From: Escherichia coli phage vB_EcoS_Ace
Sequence record: MT833283.1
Direction: 5' to 3' (one strand)
Length of the DNA: 64,000 nt
Position numbers and translations under genes: made by a program. Under the pieces are notes generated by a model. The model searched no databases. It was not told where the DNA came from and was given only the letters and a program-made list of their open reading frames with translations. Below are positions 1 to 11,247 of the stretch, piece after piece (the first letter of the stretch is position 1; each line of letters begins with the position of its first letter).

Positions 1-68
1 CCTGGGATTCGAACCCAGAACTGACGGATTAAAGGTCCGCTACTCTTATCCAGTTGAGCTAGCAATCC
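1..68 (-). tRNA. tRNA, 3' acceptor end cut by window edge; anticodon loop read as CCTTTAA (possibly UUU, Lys)
   Basis: Minus-strand hand fold: D-arm GCTC/GAGT, anticodon stem GCGGA/TCCGT, T-arm CTGGG-TTCGAAT-CCCAG; the 3' acceptor strand lies outside the window. C at position 33 is atypical. Confidence 0.55.
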
Positions 69-700
69 AATTTTTCTACTAATAATTTAAAAGCATCTAG
101 TACAGGTACTTCAAACCACTCTCCAGATACTCTATAATCTTTAAGAAGATTATGTAATTCTTTCTCTGTACGTCTTTTATCCGACGAAAATCTGAAATGG
201 TATAGCTTGTAGTCTCTATTAGGTGAATAAGTTTGATAACTTGCTAACCTCTCATTCACATCTATAGTCATACCTATTTTATACATGCCTGGCCATGCTG
301 GATTACCAATTACATATATAAAACCTTCCGTTATAGGTATTTTATGCTCCCTTTTATACTTTAAGAGATTTAAGGCTGCCATTCGATAACAGAATCTAAA
401 CTCTGAAGTTTTTAACTTACCTTCTTTACCCGAAATTTCGTTATATTTGCTCATATAAGCTCTTATGAGCTTATCATCTATAATGAAGTTATCAGGAAGG
501 TTTAAGGCAGCTAAAACTTTATTAATTAGCATAGACTTCCTTAATAGAGTATCCTTAATAGAGTAGACTTTCAAGTAAGGATGATTGATTCCTAATTCCG
601 CCATCACTTCGTTTTTATCTTTACCGTAATGGGCTAGTGGATACTTCTTACGATCTTTGCTAGATCGTAGATCACTTACCTTTAAACGAAATAATTTCAT
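59..700 (-). CDS. GIY-YIG-like (T5orf172/MUG113-type) domain protein, homing-endonuclease-like
   Basis: 213 aa ORF; core FIYVIGNPAWPGMYKIGMT...NERLASYQTYSP resembles the GIY-(10 aa)-YIG motif; paralog of the 3847-4377 ORF; sits between tRNA genes. Confidence 0.7.
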   Translation of the reverse strand: MKLFRLKVSDLRSSKDRKKYPLAHYGKDKNEVMAELGINHPYLKVYSIKDTLLRKSMLINKVLAALNLPDNFIIDDKLIRAYMSKYNEISGKEGKLKTSEFRFCYRMAALNLLKYKREHKIPITEGFIYVIGNPAWPGMYKIGMTIDVNERLASYQTYSPNRDYKLYHFRFSSDKRRTEKELHNLLKDYRVSGEWFEVPVLDAFKLLVEKLDC

Positions 701-721: not shown

Positions 722-799
722 TGGAAGCGGGTGTAGGAATCGAACCTACCTCTTTCTAGCTTATGAGACTAGCGATCTCTACCAAAGATCTAACCCGCA
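722..799 (-). tRNA. tRNA with CAT anticodon (Met or lysidine-modified Ile2)
   Basis: Hand fold: anticodon stem CTAGT/GCTAG, loop CTCATAA, T-arm GTAGG-TTCGATT-CCTAC; CCA encoded (plus 722-724 tgg). Confidence 0.7.
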
Positions 800-805
800 A
801 TTGTT

Positions 806-882
806 TGGTCTCCAATGAAGGACTCGAACCTTCAACCCCACCGCCCCAAACGGTGTACTCTAGCCAATTGAGCTAATCGGAG
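806..882 (-). tRNA. tRNA-Pro (TGG)
   Basis: Acceptor CTCCGAT/ATTGGAG, D-arm GCTC/GAGT, anticodon stem CACCG/CGGTG with loop TTTGGGG, T-arm GAAGG-TTCGAGT-CCTTC, CCA encoded. Confidence 0.8.
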
Positions 883-891
883 AATATTATT

Positions 892-1089
892 TTATTGTGG
901 TGGAATATTAATATTCCGTCCATCTATGCAGTAAATGGTACTAGGAATTGTAGAGTGTATACTGAAGTTTTGTATTTTACTCTCTCCACCACAGAAATTT
1001 TTTGCAAATTCATACTCCTTGTTAATGGTTGAATCAAATTTAAAGCAACCAGTGAGTAAGAATACAGATAGTAACATAACTTTTTTCAT
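892..1089 (-). CDS. small lipoprotein (lipobox LLTGC), function unknown
   Basis: 65 aa ORF starting MKKVMLLSVFLLTGC (signal peptide plus lipobox Cys); a T5-type promoter lies directly upstream on the minus strand (about 1110-1165). Confidence 0.6.
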   Translation of the reverse strand: MKKVMLLSVFLLTGCFKFDSTINKEYEFAKNFCGGESKIQNFSIHSTIPSTIYCIDGRNINIPPQ

Positions 1090-1139
1090 TTTGCTTTCCT
1101 TCTCAACACTTTATAAGATATATTATACAGAGAATTAAG

Positions 1140-1408
1140 CAAAATAGCAAATGAATTTTTAATAAATTTACTTATTGCGTAGGCCACCTGGAGGGTTCAA
1201 GCCCCACGTCTGACAAAGAAGTTTGCGAGACTTCTCTTAAACGCCAGAATAGACCCGCCGATCTATCGGAACCTACTCAATAAGTAAACTTTCGTTTACC
1301 TACACCTACCTGGTCGGGAGGATTTTCAGCTACTAGAACCGGCCGGAAACTCATCGCCTTGTTTACCTTGTAGTCCCACTATAAGTGACGCGACCTACAA
1401 AGATTTTG
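1140..1408 (-). other. ORF-free GC-elevated segment with tRNA-like stem-loops that I could not fold into a canonical tRNA
   Basis: No ORF of 60 aa or more; hairpin GAAGT-CTCGCAA-ACTTC (minus strand, 1218-1234) looks like an anticodon arm; neighbouring TTCAAGC T-loop-like element has a poor stem. Confidence 0.3.
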
Positions 1409-1479: not shown

Positions 1480-1489
1480 ATAATGAGTC

Positions 1490-1690
1490 AATCTAGGTAG
1501 GACTTGAACCTACTATCACTTGTGCGGATTTACGAGAACCATTCTTTCACTCGAATCGAACGAGCTTCTACCCTCGGCAAGCTGGTGTCCCCTCTCCACC
1601 ACGCTAGAATGATAATTAATGCCTGCTCCTTTGAATCAAGAAGTCCACCCCGGACTTTGGGTCTTTGCAGTACATCACGCTGCTCTGATG
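1490..1690 (-). other. tRNA-like region with two T-arm-like elements, unresolved (tRNA pseudogenes or an atypical long tRNA-like RNA)
   Basis: T-arm-like GTAGG-TTCAAGT-CCTAC (plus 1497-1513) and GCTCG-TTCGATT-CGAGT (plus 1549-1565); candidate acceptor pairing 1490-1496 with 1604-1610 would give about 120 nt, too long for a standard tRNA. Confidence 0.3.
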
Positions 1691-1692
1691 TT

Positions 1693-1769
1693 TGGTACAC
1701 CCACTAGGACTTGAACCTAGAACCTACCGCTTAAGAGGCGGTAGCTCTAACCAATTGAGCTATGGATGT
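1693..1769 (-). tRNA. tRNA-Lys (CTT)
   Basis: Acceptor ACATCCA/TGGGTGT, D-arm GCTC/GAGC, anticodon stem ACCGC/GCGGT with loop CTCTTAA, T-arm CTAGG-TTCAAGT-CCTAG, CCA encoded. Confidence 0.8.
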
Positions 1770-1775
1770 ATAATT

Positions 1776-1850
1776 TGGCGGTACTAAGGGTAATCGAAAC
1801 CCTACCTCTCCCGTGACAGGGGAGTATCCTAACCGTTAGACTATAGTACC
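1776..1850 (-). tRNA. tRNA-Asp (GTC)
   Basis: Acceptor GGTACTA/TAGTACC perfect, anticodon stem CTCCC/GGGAG with loop CTGTCAC, T-arm AGGGT-TTCGATT-ACCCT, discriminator G then CCA encoded. Confidence 0.85.
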
Positions 1851-2371
1851 TTTAACTTTTTAAGTTCTTTAGGATTGCCTCCTAAAGAAGTGTATCTTTT
1901 ACGCAACCCATTATCTGAATAACTTAACTTTCTCCCTGCACCTGACCAGCCTAGCTCTCTTACTGTAACCTCGATTATTTCTTTAGTTATAGAGATATCT
2001 TTTGGTTTATGTGAAGAGCACTCCTGACATTTTTCAGCTTTTAAAGAAATAGCTTTACCACAATCCTTACAACAATTATCATGGTTTAGTTTACTAAATC
2101 CTTTATCTTTTAAAGTCTTTTCTAGATGCTGCTCTTTTGTGAGCACTTGTAAGTTATTAAGACCCCAATAAGTAATGTCTGTGTTAATATGGTCAACTTC
2201 TAGTTCAGAGTCTAGACTTGGTAATTTCTTAAATGCACATGCTAAAATCCTATGTACACCAGTATTTCTCTGTTGACCATTTTTATGGAGACGTATAGAT
2301 AAGTATCCGTAATTACTGGTTATTGGGGTTAGTATTTTGTTTGATTTGATACTAAATACTAACCCATCCAA
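1841..2371 (-). CDS. HNH homing endonuclease
   Basis: 176 aa; HNH core VHRILACAF...EVDHINTD...NNLQVL; C-terminal Cys-rich region; located within the tRNA island. Confidence 0.75.
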   Translation of the reverse strand: MDGLVFSIKSNKILTPITSNYGYLSIRLHKNGQQRNTGVHRILACAFKKLPSLDSELEVDHINTDITYWGLNNLQVLTKEQHLEKTLKDKGFSKLNHDNCCKDCGKAISLKAEKCQECSSHKPKDISITKEIIEVTVRELGWSGAGRKLSYSDNGLRKRYTSLGGNPKELKKLKVL

Positions 2372-3329: not shown

Positions 3330-3668
3330 TTAAGCAACTACATTTTTCAGAAATTTGATGCCTTTCTTACACTTCTTATACCACCACGTCTTAGAGTTTT
3401 GTCGATTATGAACGCTTGAGATCTTCGCCTCATTAAAGTGCTTCAAAAGCATATAATCAGCCCCTAATTGCTCAAGTGGAATGTGATCTCCACTAGAATC
3501 ATAAACATAAGGCCGTTGATTAGCTCTGTAGTGATATACCTTATTAATCCGGCGTTTAAGCAAAGGACTAGTACAGTATATAAAGAAGTTTTTAGGATGC
3601 ATCAGCATCTCCTTCAAAATTGGTGCACCCCGTTGGTAACGATCCAACCTCTCAAGCTCTTCAGGCAA
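3330..3668 (-). CDS. hypothetical protein
   Basis: 112 aa ORF on the coding strand of this block. Confidence 0.5.
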   Translation of the reverse strand: MPEELERLDRYQRGAPILKEMLMHPKNFFIYCTSPLLKRRINKVYHYRANQRPYVYDSSGDHIPLEQLGADYMLLKHFNEAKISSVHNRQNSKTWWYKKCKKGIKFLKNVVA

Positions 3669-3701
3669 GCGCTAATCCATCTCAGCTAAAGGTGCAAATA
3701 T

Positions 3702-3786: not shown

Positions 3787-3860
3787 TGGTATTCTCACAC
3801 GGATTCGAACCGAGATTTCTGGAGTGAAGTTCCAGTGACCTAACCATTAGTCGATGAGAA
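3787..3860 (-). tRNA. tRNA, anticodon read as TTC (Glu)
   Basis: Acceptor GTTCTCA/TGAGAAT, anticodon stem CTGGA/TCCAG perfect with loop ACTTCAC, T-arm CTCGG-TTCGAAT-CCGTG, CCA encoded. Confidence 0.6.
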
Positions 3861-4377
3861 CATTATATTCTTTTGCTTTCTCTAATTTTAGAAAAGACTT
3901 TAATTCTTCTAAGTTAATTATATTAAACCATTCACCTTCTAGTGCAAAAGGTTTAAGAAACTTATGTATTTTTGATTCTACCGCACGTCTATCGGAGTAG
4001 AATTGATAGTGCTCCAGAGTAAAATCTCTGTAAGGACTATATGTTTGATATGACCTCAGTCTTTCATGGACATTTACTGTCATACCTATTTTGTAACAAT
4101 TAGGCCATGCTTTATTGCCAATAACATATACCATACCTTCATACACAGGTAATTTATGCGCTTGTTTATACTGAATAAGATTTAAAGCAGAAATTCTATC
4201 ATACTGCATTATTCTTTTAGTATTCTTCTTTTCAGTACAAGTACCTTTTATCTCATTATAGATTTCTCGATATTTAGCAAGTAAATCTACATCAATAACA
4301 AAAGGTATAGTAGGAGAGATAATATCTCTTTCCTCCATAGCGCTAATTACTATTTTTGGTATATCTGGTATTGCCAT
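3847..4377 (-). CDS. GIY-YIG-like (T5orf172/MUG113-type) domain protein, paralog of 59-700
   Basis: 176 aa; shared core GMVYVIGNKAWPNCYKIGMTVNVHERLRSYQTYSPYRD with the 59-700 ORF. Confidence 0.7.
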   Translation of the reverse strand: MAIPDIPKIVISAMEERDIISPTIPFVIDVDLLAKYREIYNEIKGTCTEKKNTKRIMQYDRISALNLIQYKQAHKLPVYEGMVYVIGNKAWPNCYKIGMTVNVHERLRSYQTYSPYRDFTLEHYQFYSDRRAVESKIHKFLKPFALEGEWFNIINLEELKSFLKLEKAKEYNVLID

Positions 4378-4397
4378 TTTTAGACCTTAGTTAAATT

Positions 4398-4485
4398 TGG
4401 TGGGCGTTAATGGAGTCGAACCACTCGAGTCGCAATGACCAGGGATTTACAATCCCCTCCGCTACCACTTACGGAATAAACGCCC
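4398..4485 (-). tRNA. tRNA-Tyr (GTA), type II with long variable arm
   Basis: Acceptor GGGCGTT/AACGCCC, D-arm TCCG/CGGA, anticodon stem GGGGA/TCCCT with loop TTGTAAA, about 15-nt variable arm, T-arm AGTGG-TTCGACT-CCATT, CCA encoded; 88 nt. Confidence 0.75.
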
Positions 4486-4616
4486 ATATTTAGAAGTATT
4501 CAAAAAATTCTCATTTAAACACTTTTAAATATGTTTCCAAATTAGATAACTATTATATCAAGTTTTATGGCACTGAGCAAGTCAGATTTTAAAGAACTTG
4601 CTCAGTGCTGTATTAG

Positions 4617-4892
4617 TTAGTCGAACTTAGGAGTGACAGTTAAGGAGAACGGAAGTTCAAAAACTTCTTCACCCTCATCACTAACAGTGATTACCCGACC
4701 CTCTAACTTATTCATGCTAATCTCAACATCAGCCGTAGCATCTGGAGCCATGCCAGCTTCAACACATTTAGCTTTAATTTCCGGCAGAAGTTCTACATCA
4801 TAGAAATAAAGCCATTCAATCTCACCTTCCCAGCCTTCCCAGGATTTACAGATTGCACTTTCAATACCAGTTGTTATAACACGATTTTGCAT
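4617..4892 (-). CDS. hypothetical protein
   Basis: 91 aa ORF; strong hairpin (4570-4610) just downstream on the minus strand. Confidence 0.5.
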   Translation of the reverse strand: MQNRVITTGIESAICKSWEGWEGEIEWLYFYDVELLPEIKAKCVEAGMAPDATADVEISMNKLEGRVITVSDEGEEVFELPFSLTVTPKFD

Positions 4893-10374: not shown

Positions 10375-11247
10375 ATTGATTCCTTTTGTTAGGTATTTTT
10401 AAGAACTCTCGAAAAAGCTCTTAAAGATACCCGGCGGTAGGTAGGGTCAGCCCCCTCAGATTAAGCTCTGCAGCCCTTCCGTCAGACAATATCCTCCAGT
10501 TTAAGTCAGGGTGACTTTGTGGTTATGTTCTCCGTATGTGAAGAACTCGGTTAGGCTTAGGTCATGACTCCCAGCCTACTGCTGCCACTCAACAGGAATT
10601 ATCGCGAATTACCTGTACTATTGGGCACCATTAGTGACATCTCTCATGCCAGCATTTCCCACTCTCATATTCACGCGGTCTGGTAGAATCACACCTCCGA
10701 TTTTCGATGCGAAGCTGGATGCCTAGTCTCTATGTTAAACGGGGCACACACTAGGCAGTGATCCCGAGTTCCGAGTTTGGTTGAGGCCGTCAGGTTTCCT
10801 CGTGGTTTAGCTGTTTCGATTCTAACCTAATACTGATCAGGCGGCGTACCTCCTGAACCGTCATAGTATGTACTCCAGCAGCGAATGCTTATCCGGTATA
10901 AGCCCGAGTTATCCGATTCTTTCCGACCGCAGGATTCGAACCTGCATCTTCCACCAGTTACGGTTTAATATTACCGTTTATACTAGGACGGCAGTGTTAT
11001 CACATAAGTCAGTTCGACACCCCACTAACATAAACTAGAGAAGAGTTTACGAGATTTCGGGACAGCTCCCGTGTTTTCCGCAGATTTTCAGTTCCCTATC
11101 AATAGCAATAAGCGTTAGCTCGTAGCCTCTCTCAGAGTACTTACTAGTCTCCAACTCACCGACTCTATTCAGTGGAATAGCTATCCTAGTAGGAATCACT
11201 AAACTCACTCAGCGTAATCGGCTCGCTGTTCTCTACTTTATGAATTT
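10375..11247 (-). ncRNA. candidate long structured non-coding RNA or very long leader (ORF-free, GC-elevated, promoter-driven)
   Basis: About 870 nt with no ORF of 60 aa or more in the track; visibly more GC-rich than flanking DNA; strong T5-type promoter at 11248-11276 reads into it; contains canonical T-arm GCAGG-TTCGAAT-CCTGC (plus 10928-10944) without a foldable tRNA body. Confidence 0.4.

What the first reader, a model, noticed from the sequence alone, without database searches (positions are those of the whole stretch)
892..1165. Promoter-driven small lipoprotein gene inside the tRNA island
A 65-aa ORF with a textbook lipoprotein signal (MKKVMLLSVFLLTGC) has its own strong T5-type promoter. 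Small early phage lipoproteins in T5 (Llp) block the phage receptor to prevent superinfection and protect progeny. This could be an analogous receptor-masking or exclusion factor.
Basis: partly seen in the sequence, partly recalled or inferred. Interest (0 to 1): 0.45.

Follow-up and report, generated by a model that had tools for sequence, protein, structure and literature searches.

The report
Orphan early lipoprotein gene, T5-like phage
A T5-like phage carries a real, strongly promoted gene for a tiny membrane-anchored periplasmic protein that databases mislabel as a lysis "spanin"; it is unrelated to the T5 receptor-blocking lipoprotein Llp, and its function is still unknown.

Summary
Window 892-1089 (-) encodes a 65-aa prolipoprotein (lipobox LLTG|C15) under purifying selection (dN/dS 0.03-0.11). 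It lies behind a 10/12 sigma-70 promoter that matches the annotated T5 promoter P13a, and 9 nt upstream of tRNA-Pro/tRNA-Met.

The window is about 99% identical to Escherichia phage IrmaTschudi (Bas28), where the gene is bas28_0115, "hypothetical protein".

The Llp-analogue interpretation is only partly supported:
- The mature domain (one helix plus three strands, invariant Cys33/Cys54, pLDDT >90) shows no sequence or fold similarity to T5 Llp, Cor or o-spanins.
- The phage already has a Cor/Llp-type lipoprotein next to its BtuB-binding receptor protein, and a canonical i/o-spanin pair.
- Phages with a 95-100% identical receptor-binding protein lack the gene.

The gene is one of three interchangeable cassettes in a slot whose flanks are 92-99% conserved. 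Homologues occur in about 70 T5-like phage records, in Erwinia phage KEY at the same position, and in rV5-like Seunavirus phages, always without a conserved partner gene. About a third of lineages have Asp at +2 and two have uncleaved TM anchors, so outer-membrane residence is not conserved.

Best reading: a dispensable, early, membrane-tethered periplasmic binder, probably for exclusion or envelope modification. The PHROG label "Rz-like spanin" is unsupported. Interest is modest.

The parts
892..1089 (-). Complete ORF for the 65-aa prolipoprotein, including the stop codon TAA at 892-894. It corresponds to bas28_0115 of phage IrmaTschudi.
   Evidence: dN/dS 0.03-0.11; homologues
1048..1089 (-). 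Signal peptide, residues 1-14 (MKKVMLLSVFLLTG), ending in the lipobox L-T-G before Cys15
   Evidence: read directly
1045..1047 (-). Codon for Cys15, the predicted lipid-modified first residue of the mature protein. The +2 residue is Phe and +3 is Lys.
   Evidence: Cys15 conserved in at least 90% of 34 sequences
895..1044 (-). Mature periplasmic domain, residues 16-65. It has a helix (17-33), three strands (39-43, 50-54, 59-62) and invariant Cys33 (991-993) and Cys54 (928-930), inferred to form a disulfide.
   Evidence: AF2 model with mean pLDDT 83 and blocks 21-60 at 92-98; invariant columns
1097..1101 (-). Shine-Dalgarno sequence AAGGA, 7 nt upstream of the ATG
   Evidence: conserved in six phages
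1122..1150 (-). Sigma-70 promoter: -35 TTGCTA (1145-1150), 17-nt spacer, -10 TATAAT (1122-1127). Equivalent to the annotated T5 promoter P13a.
1151..1175 (-). A/T-rich stretch upstream of the -35 hexamer (AATAAGTAAATTTATTAAAAATTCA), resembling an UP element. No function has been tested.
722..882 (-). tRNA-Pro(UGG) at 806-882 and tRNA-Met(CAU) at 722-799. tRNA-Pro starts 9 nt after the stop codon, with no terminator between them, so co-transcription from the same promoter is inferred.
   Evidence: same arrangement in FFH1, EH3, Lindwurm, T5 and Erwinia phage KEY

Best explanation
What it is. This is a genuine accessory gene of a T5-like phage (Markadamsvirinae) for a small membrane-anchored periplasmic protein.

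How it is made.
- Shown: a strong sigma-70 promoter, the counterpart of T5 P13a, and a good ribosome-binding site sit in front of the ORF.
- Shown: the ORF is followed 9 nt later by tRNA-Pro and tRNA-Met.
- Inferred: host RNA polymerase transcribes all three early in infection, and RNase P cutting at tRNA-Pro releases the short mRNA.
- Inferred from the lipobox: the 65-aa precursor is exported and lipidated at Cys15, and its 14-residue signal peptide is removed.
- Predicted: the resulting 51-aa lipoprotein folds as one helix packed on a three-stranded sheet, clamped by the invariant Cys33-Cys54 pair. It is held about six residues from the membrane surface.

What it most likely does (inference). 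It acts alone as a binder of a conserved host envelope or periplasmic component. The likely effect is to exclude or blunt competitors, or otherwise condition the envelope. This is superinfection exclusion in the broad sense.

What it is not. It is not the blocker of the phage's own receptor. That job belongs to the Cor/Llp-type lipoprotein next to the receptor-binding protein. It is not a spanin either.

Which membrane. The textbook +2 rule sends Phe(+2) to the outer membrane. However, relatives carry Asp(+2) or uncleaved TM anchors. The common site of action is therefore more likely the periplasmic face of the inner membrane, or a soluble periplasmic or cell-wall target, than an outer-membrane receptor.

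Likelihoods. I put a real lipoprotein gene of an orphan family at about 0.9. I put the exclusion or envelope-conditioning role at about 0.4-0.45.
For: Real gene. ORF, lipobox and ribosome-binding site are present. dN/dS is 0.03-0.11. The family has 26 clusters and invariant Cys33/Cys54. The AF2 model is confident.

Promoter. The 10/12 match is invariant in six phages and coincides with T5 'promoter P13a'.

Accessory cassette.
- The upstream 203 nt are 92-99% identical to T5 and oselot, and the downstream tRNAs are 97-99% identical. The ORF body cannot be aligned.
- The same slot holds a 2-TM 52-aa protein in T5 and oselot, or a 79-aa Zn-ribbon protein in SE18, bombadil and faergetype.
- Only about 70 of more than 415 T5-like records carry the lipoprotein.

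Old association. Erwinia phage KEY has a 50%-identical homologue, also directly before tRNA-Pro.

Stand-alone. No conserved neighbour was found in the seven non-E. coli/Salmonella-T5-like contexts examined. Neighbours are small early-type ORFs, an anti-sigma factor and a MazG-like protein.

Not the own-receptor blocker and not a spanin. IrmaTschudi has bas28_0209 (phrog_1119 Cor, E 1e-23) next to its receptor-binding protein. It also has i-/o-spanins bas28_0153/0154 (phrog_739/812), a T-type holin and an endolysin. Phages with the same receptor-binding protein lack the gene.

Location not conserved. The +2 residues are F 12, D 9, Y 5, others 8, and two members have TM anchors. Seunavirus orthologues that are 70% identical, all from Salmonella phages, switch between Y and D at +2.
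Against: No experiment or interaction prediction links the protein to any target. 'Exclusion' rests on analogy with other small early phage envelope proteins.

The fold has no informative structural neighbour.

One alternative occupant of the slot is a cytoplasmic Zn-ribbon protein. The slot is therefore not dedicated to envelope functions.

For this particular protein the standard +2 rule predicts an outer-membrane location, which would keep an Llp-like mode possible.

SignalP and LipoP were not run. Lipidation is inferred from the sequence pattern only.
Confidence: 0.5

Rival explanations
1. Llp-like receptor jamming. [quoted passage not shown] The target could be BtuB, as a second blocker, or a different transporter used by competing phages or colicins. 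Binding would allosterically close the extracellular phage-binding site.
For: It is a small early lipoprotein with a lipid Cys plus one Cys pair, as in T5 Llp, which has a Cys11-Cys58 disulfide (PMC9586334). Phe at +2 is outer-membrane-directed by the textbook rule. Every carrier whose receptor-binding protein I could see belongs to the same BtuB-type family, at 63-100% identity. That family makes up about 75% of all T5-like records, so this is weak evidence.
Against: The mature domain has no sequence or fold similarity to Llp or Cor. A dedicated Cor-type lipoprotein already sits beside the receptor-binding protein. Phages with an identical receptor-binding protein lack the gene. Homologues occur in Seunavirus and Erwinia phages, never next to a receptor-binding protein gene. 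Nine lineages have Asp at +2 and two have TM anchors, with a tether too short to reach the outer membrane.
Confidence: 0.17
2. Lysis-timing regulator (antiholin-like). The membrane-tethered periplasmic domain binds the large periplasmic domain of the phage's T4-T-type holin and delays or tunes lysis, as T4 RI does.
For: The T5-like holin is a clear Phage_holin_T member (PF11031, E 1e-114). Its periplasmic domain is the known target of the T4 antiholin RI (my own knowledge of the T4 system). An inner-membrane-proximal periplasmic location would fit this model.
Against: All T5-like phages have this holin, but only about 17% have the lipoprotein. No Seunavirus-sized genome appeared in a 60-row spread sample of 1,984 T-holin hits, although Seunavirus carries the lipoprotein. 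I saw no resemblance to RI, which I recall as helical with a releasable signal anchor (own knowledge). RI was never compared with this protein here. The gene is not in the lysis cassette, which lies about 10 kb away in IrmaTschudi.
Confidence: 0.07
3. Outer-membrane spanin subunit (o-spanin, Rz1-like), as the PHROG, pharokka and RefSeq label 'Rz-like spanin' implies. It would bridge to an inner-membrane spanin and fuse the membranes at lysis.
For: The protein matches phrog_6073, annotated 'Rz-like spanin', at E 1.5e-24. Many public records copy that name.
Against: The phage has a canonical overlapping i-/o-spanin pair near its holin and endolysin. There is no i-spanin-like neighbour here or in any other context. 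The domain is a confidently folded alpha/beta unit with only 3 Pro in 51 residues, not an extended Pro-rich chain. Asp(+2) and TM-anchored members cannot be outer-membrane subunits. No member hit a Pfam Rz1 model; LPAM_1 was the top family, matched by 9 of 34 members. phrog_6073 also lumps in a second lipoprotein type (bas28_0165) whose mature domain is unrelated. The grouping looks driven by the signal peptide.
Confidence: 0.03
4. A non-functional or decaying ORF that merely sits in the leader of a tRNA transcript.
For: It lies in a region that I recall as deletable in T5 laboratory deletion mutants (own knowledge, not checked here). Most relatives carry something else in the slot. KPP2018 and KKP_3831 appear as two-piece, possibly frameshifted, copies.
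Against: Purifying selection is strong. Cysteines and motifs are invariant across about 30%-identical relatives in different phage families. The promoter and ribosome-binding site are intact and conserved.
Confidence: 0.02

Closest known systems
T5 Llp (lytic conversion lipoprotein) and the Cor family of receptor-blocking exclusion lipoproteins (phrog_1119; NCBIfam NF047972)
   Same: Both are small phage lipoproteins of 60-90 aa encoded in the early region of T5-like phages. Each has a short signal peptide, a lipid-modified Cys and one further Cys pair. Each works without a phage partner gene.
   Different: The mature domains are unrelated by hhalign. Neither fold search returned Llp among its top matches, although Llp is in the PDB. 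Llp and Cor genes sit next to the receptor-binding protein gene and co-vary with it; this gene does neither. Llp has Ser at +2, which directs it to the outer membrane. This family is rich in Asp and aromatic residues at +2.
o-spanins (lambda Rz1; T5-like phrog_812)
   Same: Both are small lipoproteins with an N-terminal lipobox. The database label 'Rz-like spanin' comes through phrog_6073.
   Different: There is no i-spanin partner. The gene is not in the lysis cassette. The domain is folded and not Pro-rich. Some members carry inner-membrane retention signals. The phage has its own spanin pair.
T4 Sp (spackle) and Imm: small early envelope proteins that exclude superinfecting phages at the periplasm or inner membrane
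   Same: This is a functional analogy only, drawn from my own knowledge of T4. Both are small, early, membrane-tethered periplasmic proteins of a virulent phage, dispensable in the laboratory and acting alone. One alternative occupant of the slot (T5.066 type) is a 2-TM protein, as I recall Imm to be (own knowledge; Imm was not examined here).
   Different: I saw no resemblance to Sp or Imm, but no direct comparison was run. Anchoring is by lipid rather than by a signal anchor. No exclusion phenotype is known for this family.
T5.066-type (phrog_18174) and Zn-ribbon ORFs that occupy the same slot in other T5-like phages
   Same: They have the same promoter, the same ribosome-binding site, even the same first codons (ATG AAR), and the same downstream tRNA-Pro.
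   Different: The proteins are unrelated: a 52-aa two-TM membrane protein and a 79-aa cytoplasmic Zn-ribbon protein.

Membership tests
Bacterial-type lipoprotein (Lgt/LspA substrate; PROSITE PS51257 rule) | Positively charged n-region, uncharged hydrophobic h-region, and a lipobox [LVI][ASTVI][GAS]C with the Cys at position 15-35 | tested here: met
   K2K3, then VMLLSVFLL, then L-T-G-C15. The protein passes the rule-based check, as do 31 of the 34 aligned family members plus the added PVP-SE1 gp211 and EH3 copies; a 32nd aligned member (P0025) has a clear LTGC box by eye. Nine members also hit Pfam LPAM_1.
Bacterial-type lipoprotein (Lgt/LspA substrate; PROSITE PS51257 rule) | Actual lipid modification and signal peptidase II cleavage | not testable with these tools
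   This needs globomycin sensitivity or palmitate labelling. SignalP and LipoP were not available.
T5 Llp / Cor receptor-blocking exclusion lipoproteins | Sequence homology of the mature domain to Llp or Cor | tested here: not met
   hhalign aligns only the signal peptide. With signal peptides removed the probability is 0.1-0.2%. The phrog_1119 hit covers residues 1-21 only, at E 0.066.
T5 Llp / Cor receptor-blocking exclusion lipoproteins | Fold similarity to the solved Llp structures (8a60_B, 7qjf_A) | tested here: not met
T5 Llp / Cor receptor-blocking exclusion lipoproteins | Gene adjacent to, and co-varying with, the receptor-binding protein gene | tested here: not met
   The gene lies in the tRNA island, about 35 kb from the receptor-binding protein in IrmaTschudi. 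bas28_0209 holds the adjacent position. bombadil and faergetype have receptor-binding proteins 100% and 95% identical but lack the gene.
T5 Llp / Cor receptor-blocking exclusion lipoproteins | Blocks infection by binding an outer-membrane receptor | not testable with these tools
   This requires expression and plating assays, or binding assays.
o-spanin (Rz1-like) | Partner i-spanin gene that is embedded, overlapping or adjacent | tested here: not met
   The flanks are a promoter plus stable-RNA homologue on one side and tRNA-Pro on the other. Neighbours in PVP-SE1 and in metagenomic loci are not type-II coiled-coil proteins.
o-spanin (Rz1-like) | Obligatory outer-membrane sorting (no Lol-avoidance signal) | tested here: inconclusive
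   This protein has Phe(+2), which the standard rule sends to the outer membrane. Nine family lineages have Asp(+2) and two lack a lipobox. Salmonella-phage orthologues switch between Y and D at +2.
o-spanin (Rz1-like) | The only spanin function in the genome, or located in the lysis cassette | tested here: not met
   IrmaTschudi has bas28_0153/0154 (phrog_739 and phrog_812) about 1.5 kb from its holin and endolysin.
phrog_6073 (PHROG family labelled 'Rz-like spanin') | Full-length HMM match | tested here: met
   E 1.5e-24 over residues 1-63 of 65. The same HMM also matches bas28_0165 at E 4.9e-27, whose mature domain is unrelated. The family is composite and its functional label is unsupported.
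T4 RI-type antiholin | Co-occurrence with a T-type holin | tested here: inconclusive
   A T-type holin is present in this phage lineage. The lipoprotein is absent from most T-holin phages. It is present in Seunavirus, which did not appear among sampled T-holin hits.

The most novel reading that the evidence does not exclude
The family could be the first example of a lipid- or TM-tethered periplasmic mini-domain that virulent phages of different families (T5-like Markadamsvirinae, rV5-like Seunavirus and others) deploy early at the periplasmic face of the inner membrane. Its target would be a conserved host envelope machine, for example a TonB/Tol-type energiser, a DNA-entry route or an envelope-associated defence sensor. 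That would make it an exclusion or anti-defence mechanism distinct from the outer-membrane receptor jamming of Llp and Cor.
Probability: 0.2. Interest if true: 0.55.

Novelty: new member of a known kind. Interest (0 to 1): 0.3.

Why it matters
Small phage lipoproteins such as Llp and Cor show how a roughly 60-residue protein can shut down a host envelope machine. An unrelated, structurally confident family shared by T5-like and rV5-like therapeutic-type phages could point to another such target.

There are two practical consequences. First, it corrects an annotation error ('Rz-like spanin') that is now spreading through pharokka and RefSeq records. Second, it shows that the slot between promoter P13a and tRNA-Pro is a swap site for accessory genes in T5-like phages, which is useful for engineering.

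Without a phenotype the finding remains a well-characterised gene of unknown function.

Tried and rejected
1. Homology to Llp, Cor, the o-spanin and the second small lipoprotein bas28_0165. Full-length hhalign gave 66-93% probabilities for three of the four (8% for the o-spanin), but only over the signal peptide. After stripping signal peptides, nothing remained. I rejected paralogy with bas28_0165 even though both hit phrog_6073.

3. Conserved partner gene. I compared neighbours in PVP-SE1, KE22, Erwinia phage KEY and five metagenomic contigs. Only Seunavirus relatives share the downstream 2-TM protein gp210, and nothing is universal.

4. The search for related loci with two family alignments failed, because no stretch was conserved enough.

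5. Antiholin idea. The T-type holin is confirmed, but its distribution does not track the lipoprotein.

6. Correlation with receptor type. All carriers I could check have BtuB-type receptor-binding proteins, but so do about 75% of T5-like records, and phages with an identical receptor-binding protein lack the gene.

7. Literature. I found no paper on this ORF. I could not find an open-access statement of the report that aromatic +2 residues retain lipoproteins in the inner membrane (Seydel et al. 1999, as I remember it). That point is marked as my own recollection and is not used as evidence.

8. Rfam found no known RNA family overlapping the ORF or its leader.

Full report
**Source of the window.** Positions 600-1500 are 99.2% identical to Escherichia phage IrmaTschudi (BASEL Bas28; Demerecviridae, Markadamsvirinae, Epseptimavirus). 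The finding lies in that phage's tRNA island. The ORF is annotated there as bas28_0115, 'hypothetical protein', and UniRef names it 'Lipoprotein'.

**Observation.**
- The ORF 892..1089 (-) encodes MKKVMLLSVFLLTGCFKFDSTINKEYEFAKNFCGGESKIQNFSIHSTIPSTIYCIDGRNINIPPQ.
- The N-terminus satisfies a PS51257-type lipoprotein rule: K2K3, an uncharged hydrophobic core, and L-T-G-C with Cys15.
- It is the only lipobox ORF found by my screen of the 64-kb window.
- AAGGA lies 7 nt before the ATG.
- TTGCTA-17-TATAAT (1150..1122, 10/12) lies upstream, preceded by an A/T-rich tract.
- This promoter, the ribosome-binding site and even the first codons are conserved in T5, FFH1, EH3, oselot and SE18.
- They coincide with the 'promoter P13a' feature of the T5 reference record.
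- The gene is real. dN/dS is 0.03-0.11 against the FFH1 and Lindwurm orthologues, with dS 0.2-0.9.
- A profile search of 1.84 billion cluster representatives finds 26 clusters. In a 34-sequence alignment Cys33 and Cys54 are invariant, and Cys15, Phe32, Arg58 and Pro63 are nearly so.

**Anatomy.**
- AlphaFold2 with the 34-sequence alignment gives mean pLDDT 83.2. The 10-residue blocks covering 21-60 score 92-98 and the last block (61-65) scores 87.
- The model has a helix at 17-33 and strands at 39-43, 50-54 and 59-62.
- The two invariant cysteines sit at the helix end and on strand 2. I infer a periplasmic disulfide.
- Only about six residues separate the lipid Cys from the helix, so the domain sits at the membrane surface.
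- The stop codon is 9 nt from tRNA-Pro, which is followed by tRNA-Met. No terminator motif was found between them. I infer that the ORF is the 5' part of a tRNA precursor transcript.
- Upstream of the promoter lies a homologue of the T5 stable RNA 'RNAIV'.

**A swap slot.**
- Against T5 and oselot, the 203 nt upstream are 91.6% and 99.0% identical and the two tRNAs are 98.8% and 97.5% identical. The ORF body cannot be aligned.
- T5 and oselot carry a 52-aa two-TM protein in the slot (T5.066, phrog_18174).
- SE18, bombadil and faergetype carry a Zn-ribbon protein, 79 aa in bombadil and faergetype.
- About 70 T5-like records carry the lipoprotein, mostly Tequintavirus of the SPC35/FFH1 type plus a few Epseptimavirus.
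- More than 415 records match the region overall.
- Erwinia phage KEY has a short Zn-ribbon ORF followed by a 50%-identical lipoprotein homologue, again immediately before tRNA-Pro. The association with this site is therefore old.

**Wider family.**
- Homologues at 30-50% identity occur in rV5-like Seunavirus phages of Salmonella and Cronobacter, such as PVP-SE1 gp211, SSE121 and GAP31.
- They also occur on metagenomic phage contigs among runs of small early-type ORFs.
- No neighbour is conserved across lineages.
- The shared motifs are [FY]xWAxxFCGG, CxDGR and DIP.
- The +2 residues are F 12, D 9 (including P0025), Y 5 and others 8. Two members replace the lipobox with an uncleaved TM anchor.
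- Within Salmonella Seunavirus phages, orthologues 70% identical carry Tyr or Asp at +2.
- Asp at +2 is the established inner-membrane retention signal in Enterobacteria (reviewed in PMC4623201). Outer-membrane residence is therefore not a conserved property of the family.
- I recall that Seydel et al. 1999 reported inner-membrane retention for aromatic +2 residues in a reporter. I could not verify this in the library and do not rely on it.

**Comparison with known systems.**
- The PHROG hit is phrog_6073, 'Rz-like spanin' (E 1.5e-24). That name has been copied into many pharokka and RefSeq records.
- The label is not supported. IrmaTschudi has a canonical overlapping i-/o-spanin pair, bas28_0153/0154. 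One is a TM plus coiled-coil protein and the other a 117-aa lipoprotein, matching phrog_739 and phrog_812.
- That pair lies near a T4-T-type holin (PF11031, E 1e-114) and an M15 endolysin.
- The present gene has no i-spanin partner and is not Pro-rich or unstructured.
- phrog_6073 also matches a different 68-aa lipoprotein, bas28_0165. Its mature domain shows no similarity once signal peptides are removed. The PHROG looks like a composite driven by signal peptides.
- For Llp and Cor, hhalign against T5 Llp and against the phage's own Cor-family protein bas28_0209 aligns the signal peptide only.
- bas28_0209 sits beside the receptor-binding protein gene. The phage uses BtuB (PMC11619597).
- bombadil and faergetype have receptor-binding proteins 100% and 95% identical but lack the lipoprotein.

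**Mechanism.**
- Shown: a conserved, selected ORF with a canonical lipobox, a conserved strong promoter and ribosome-binding site, a confident small alpha/beta fold with an invariant Cys pair, cassette behaviour, and no partner gene.
- Inferred: early expression, export and lipidation, a disulfide, and action as a stand-alone binder at a membrane surface in the periplasm.
- My best guess is an accessory exclusion or envelope-conditioning factor aimed at a conserved host component, not the phage's own receptor. The inner-membrane face or the periplasm is a more likely common site than the outer membrane.
- Rivals are Llp-like jamming of an outer-membrane transporter (0.17), an antiholin-like regulator of the T-type holin (0.07), a spanin (0.03) and a functionless ORF (0.02).

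**Verdict.** The gene is already annotated in public records, as hypothetical protein, lipoprotein or mislabelled spanin. It belongs to an uncharacterised orphan family. It is a reasonable candidate for a simple expression and plating experiment, but nothing here would strongly surprise a specialist.

Noticed in passing
window 1176-1278 (-): Homologue of the T5 stable RNA 'RNAIV' (function unknown), about 90% identical to T5. It ends about 25 nt upstream of the lipoprotein promoter. Rfam has no family for it, and it is unannotated in IrmaTschudi.
   Followed up: partly
window 1486-1611 (-): Homologue of the T5 'RNA2' tRNA-like stable RNA, about 87% identical. In IrmaTschudi this stretch is annotated as a 56-aa CDS (bas28_0113, window 1530-1700) that overlaps tRNA-Lys. 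That CDS is probably spurious.
   Followed up: partly
window 1293-1407 (-): A stretch of about 115 nt, relatively G+C-rich, between tRNA-Gly and the RNAIV homologue. It is conserved in EH3, oselot and SE18 but replaced by RNA2 in T5 and FFH1. There is no ORF, tRNA or Rfam hit, so it may be another stable RNA.
   Followed up: no
window 3624-3695 (-), 10921-10992 (-), 1-68 (-): Rfam's tRNA model finds two extra tRNA-like elements (33.4 and 29.7 bits) that ARAGORN did not call. It also finds a tRNA cut by the window start.
   Followed up: no
window 59-700 (-): A single 213-aa ORF occupies the position where IrmaTschudi annotates two genes, a 54-aa protein (bas28_0118) and a 157-aa putative homing endonuclease (bas28_0119). 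The difference could be a frameshift between the window and the GenBank record, or a fused reading frame. Similar homing-endonuclease-like ORFs lie at 1841-2371 (-) and 3847-4377 (-) between tRNA genes.
   Followed up: no
IrmaTschudi MZ501076 94296-94502 (locus L011:14297-14503), outside the window: A second small lipoprotein, bas28_0165 (68 aa, lipobox LAGC, Asp or Asn at +2, two further invariant Cys). It is present in about 148 mostly Epseptimavirus records and is also labelled 'Rz-like spanin' through phrog_6073. Its mature domain is unrelated to the finding, and its function is unknown.
   Followed up: partly
locus L004 (PVP-SE1) 4225-4872 and L024 2895-3539: In Seunavirus the lipoprotein homologue is followed 12 nt later by a conserved protein of about 215 aa. 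It has two TM segments, an SH3-like middle part and a charged coiled-coil tail (gp210). This pairing is lineage-specific and is absent from T5-like phages.
   Followed up: partly
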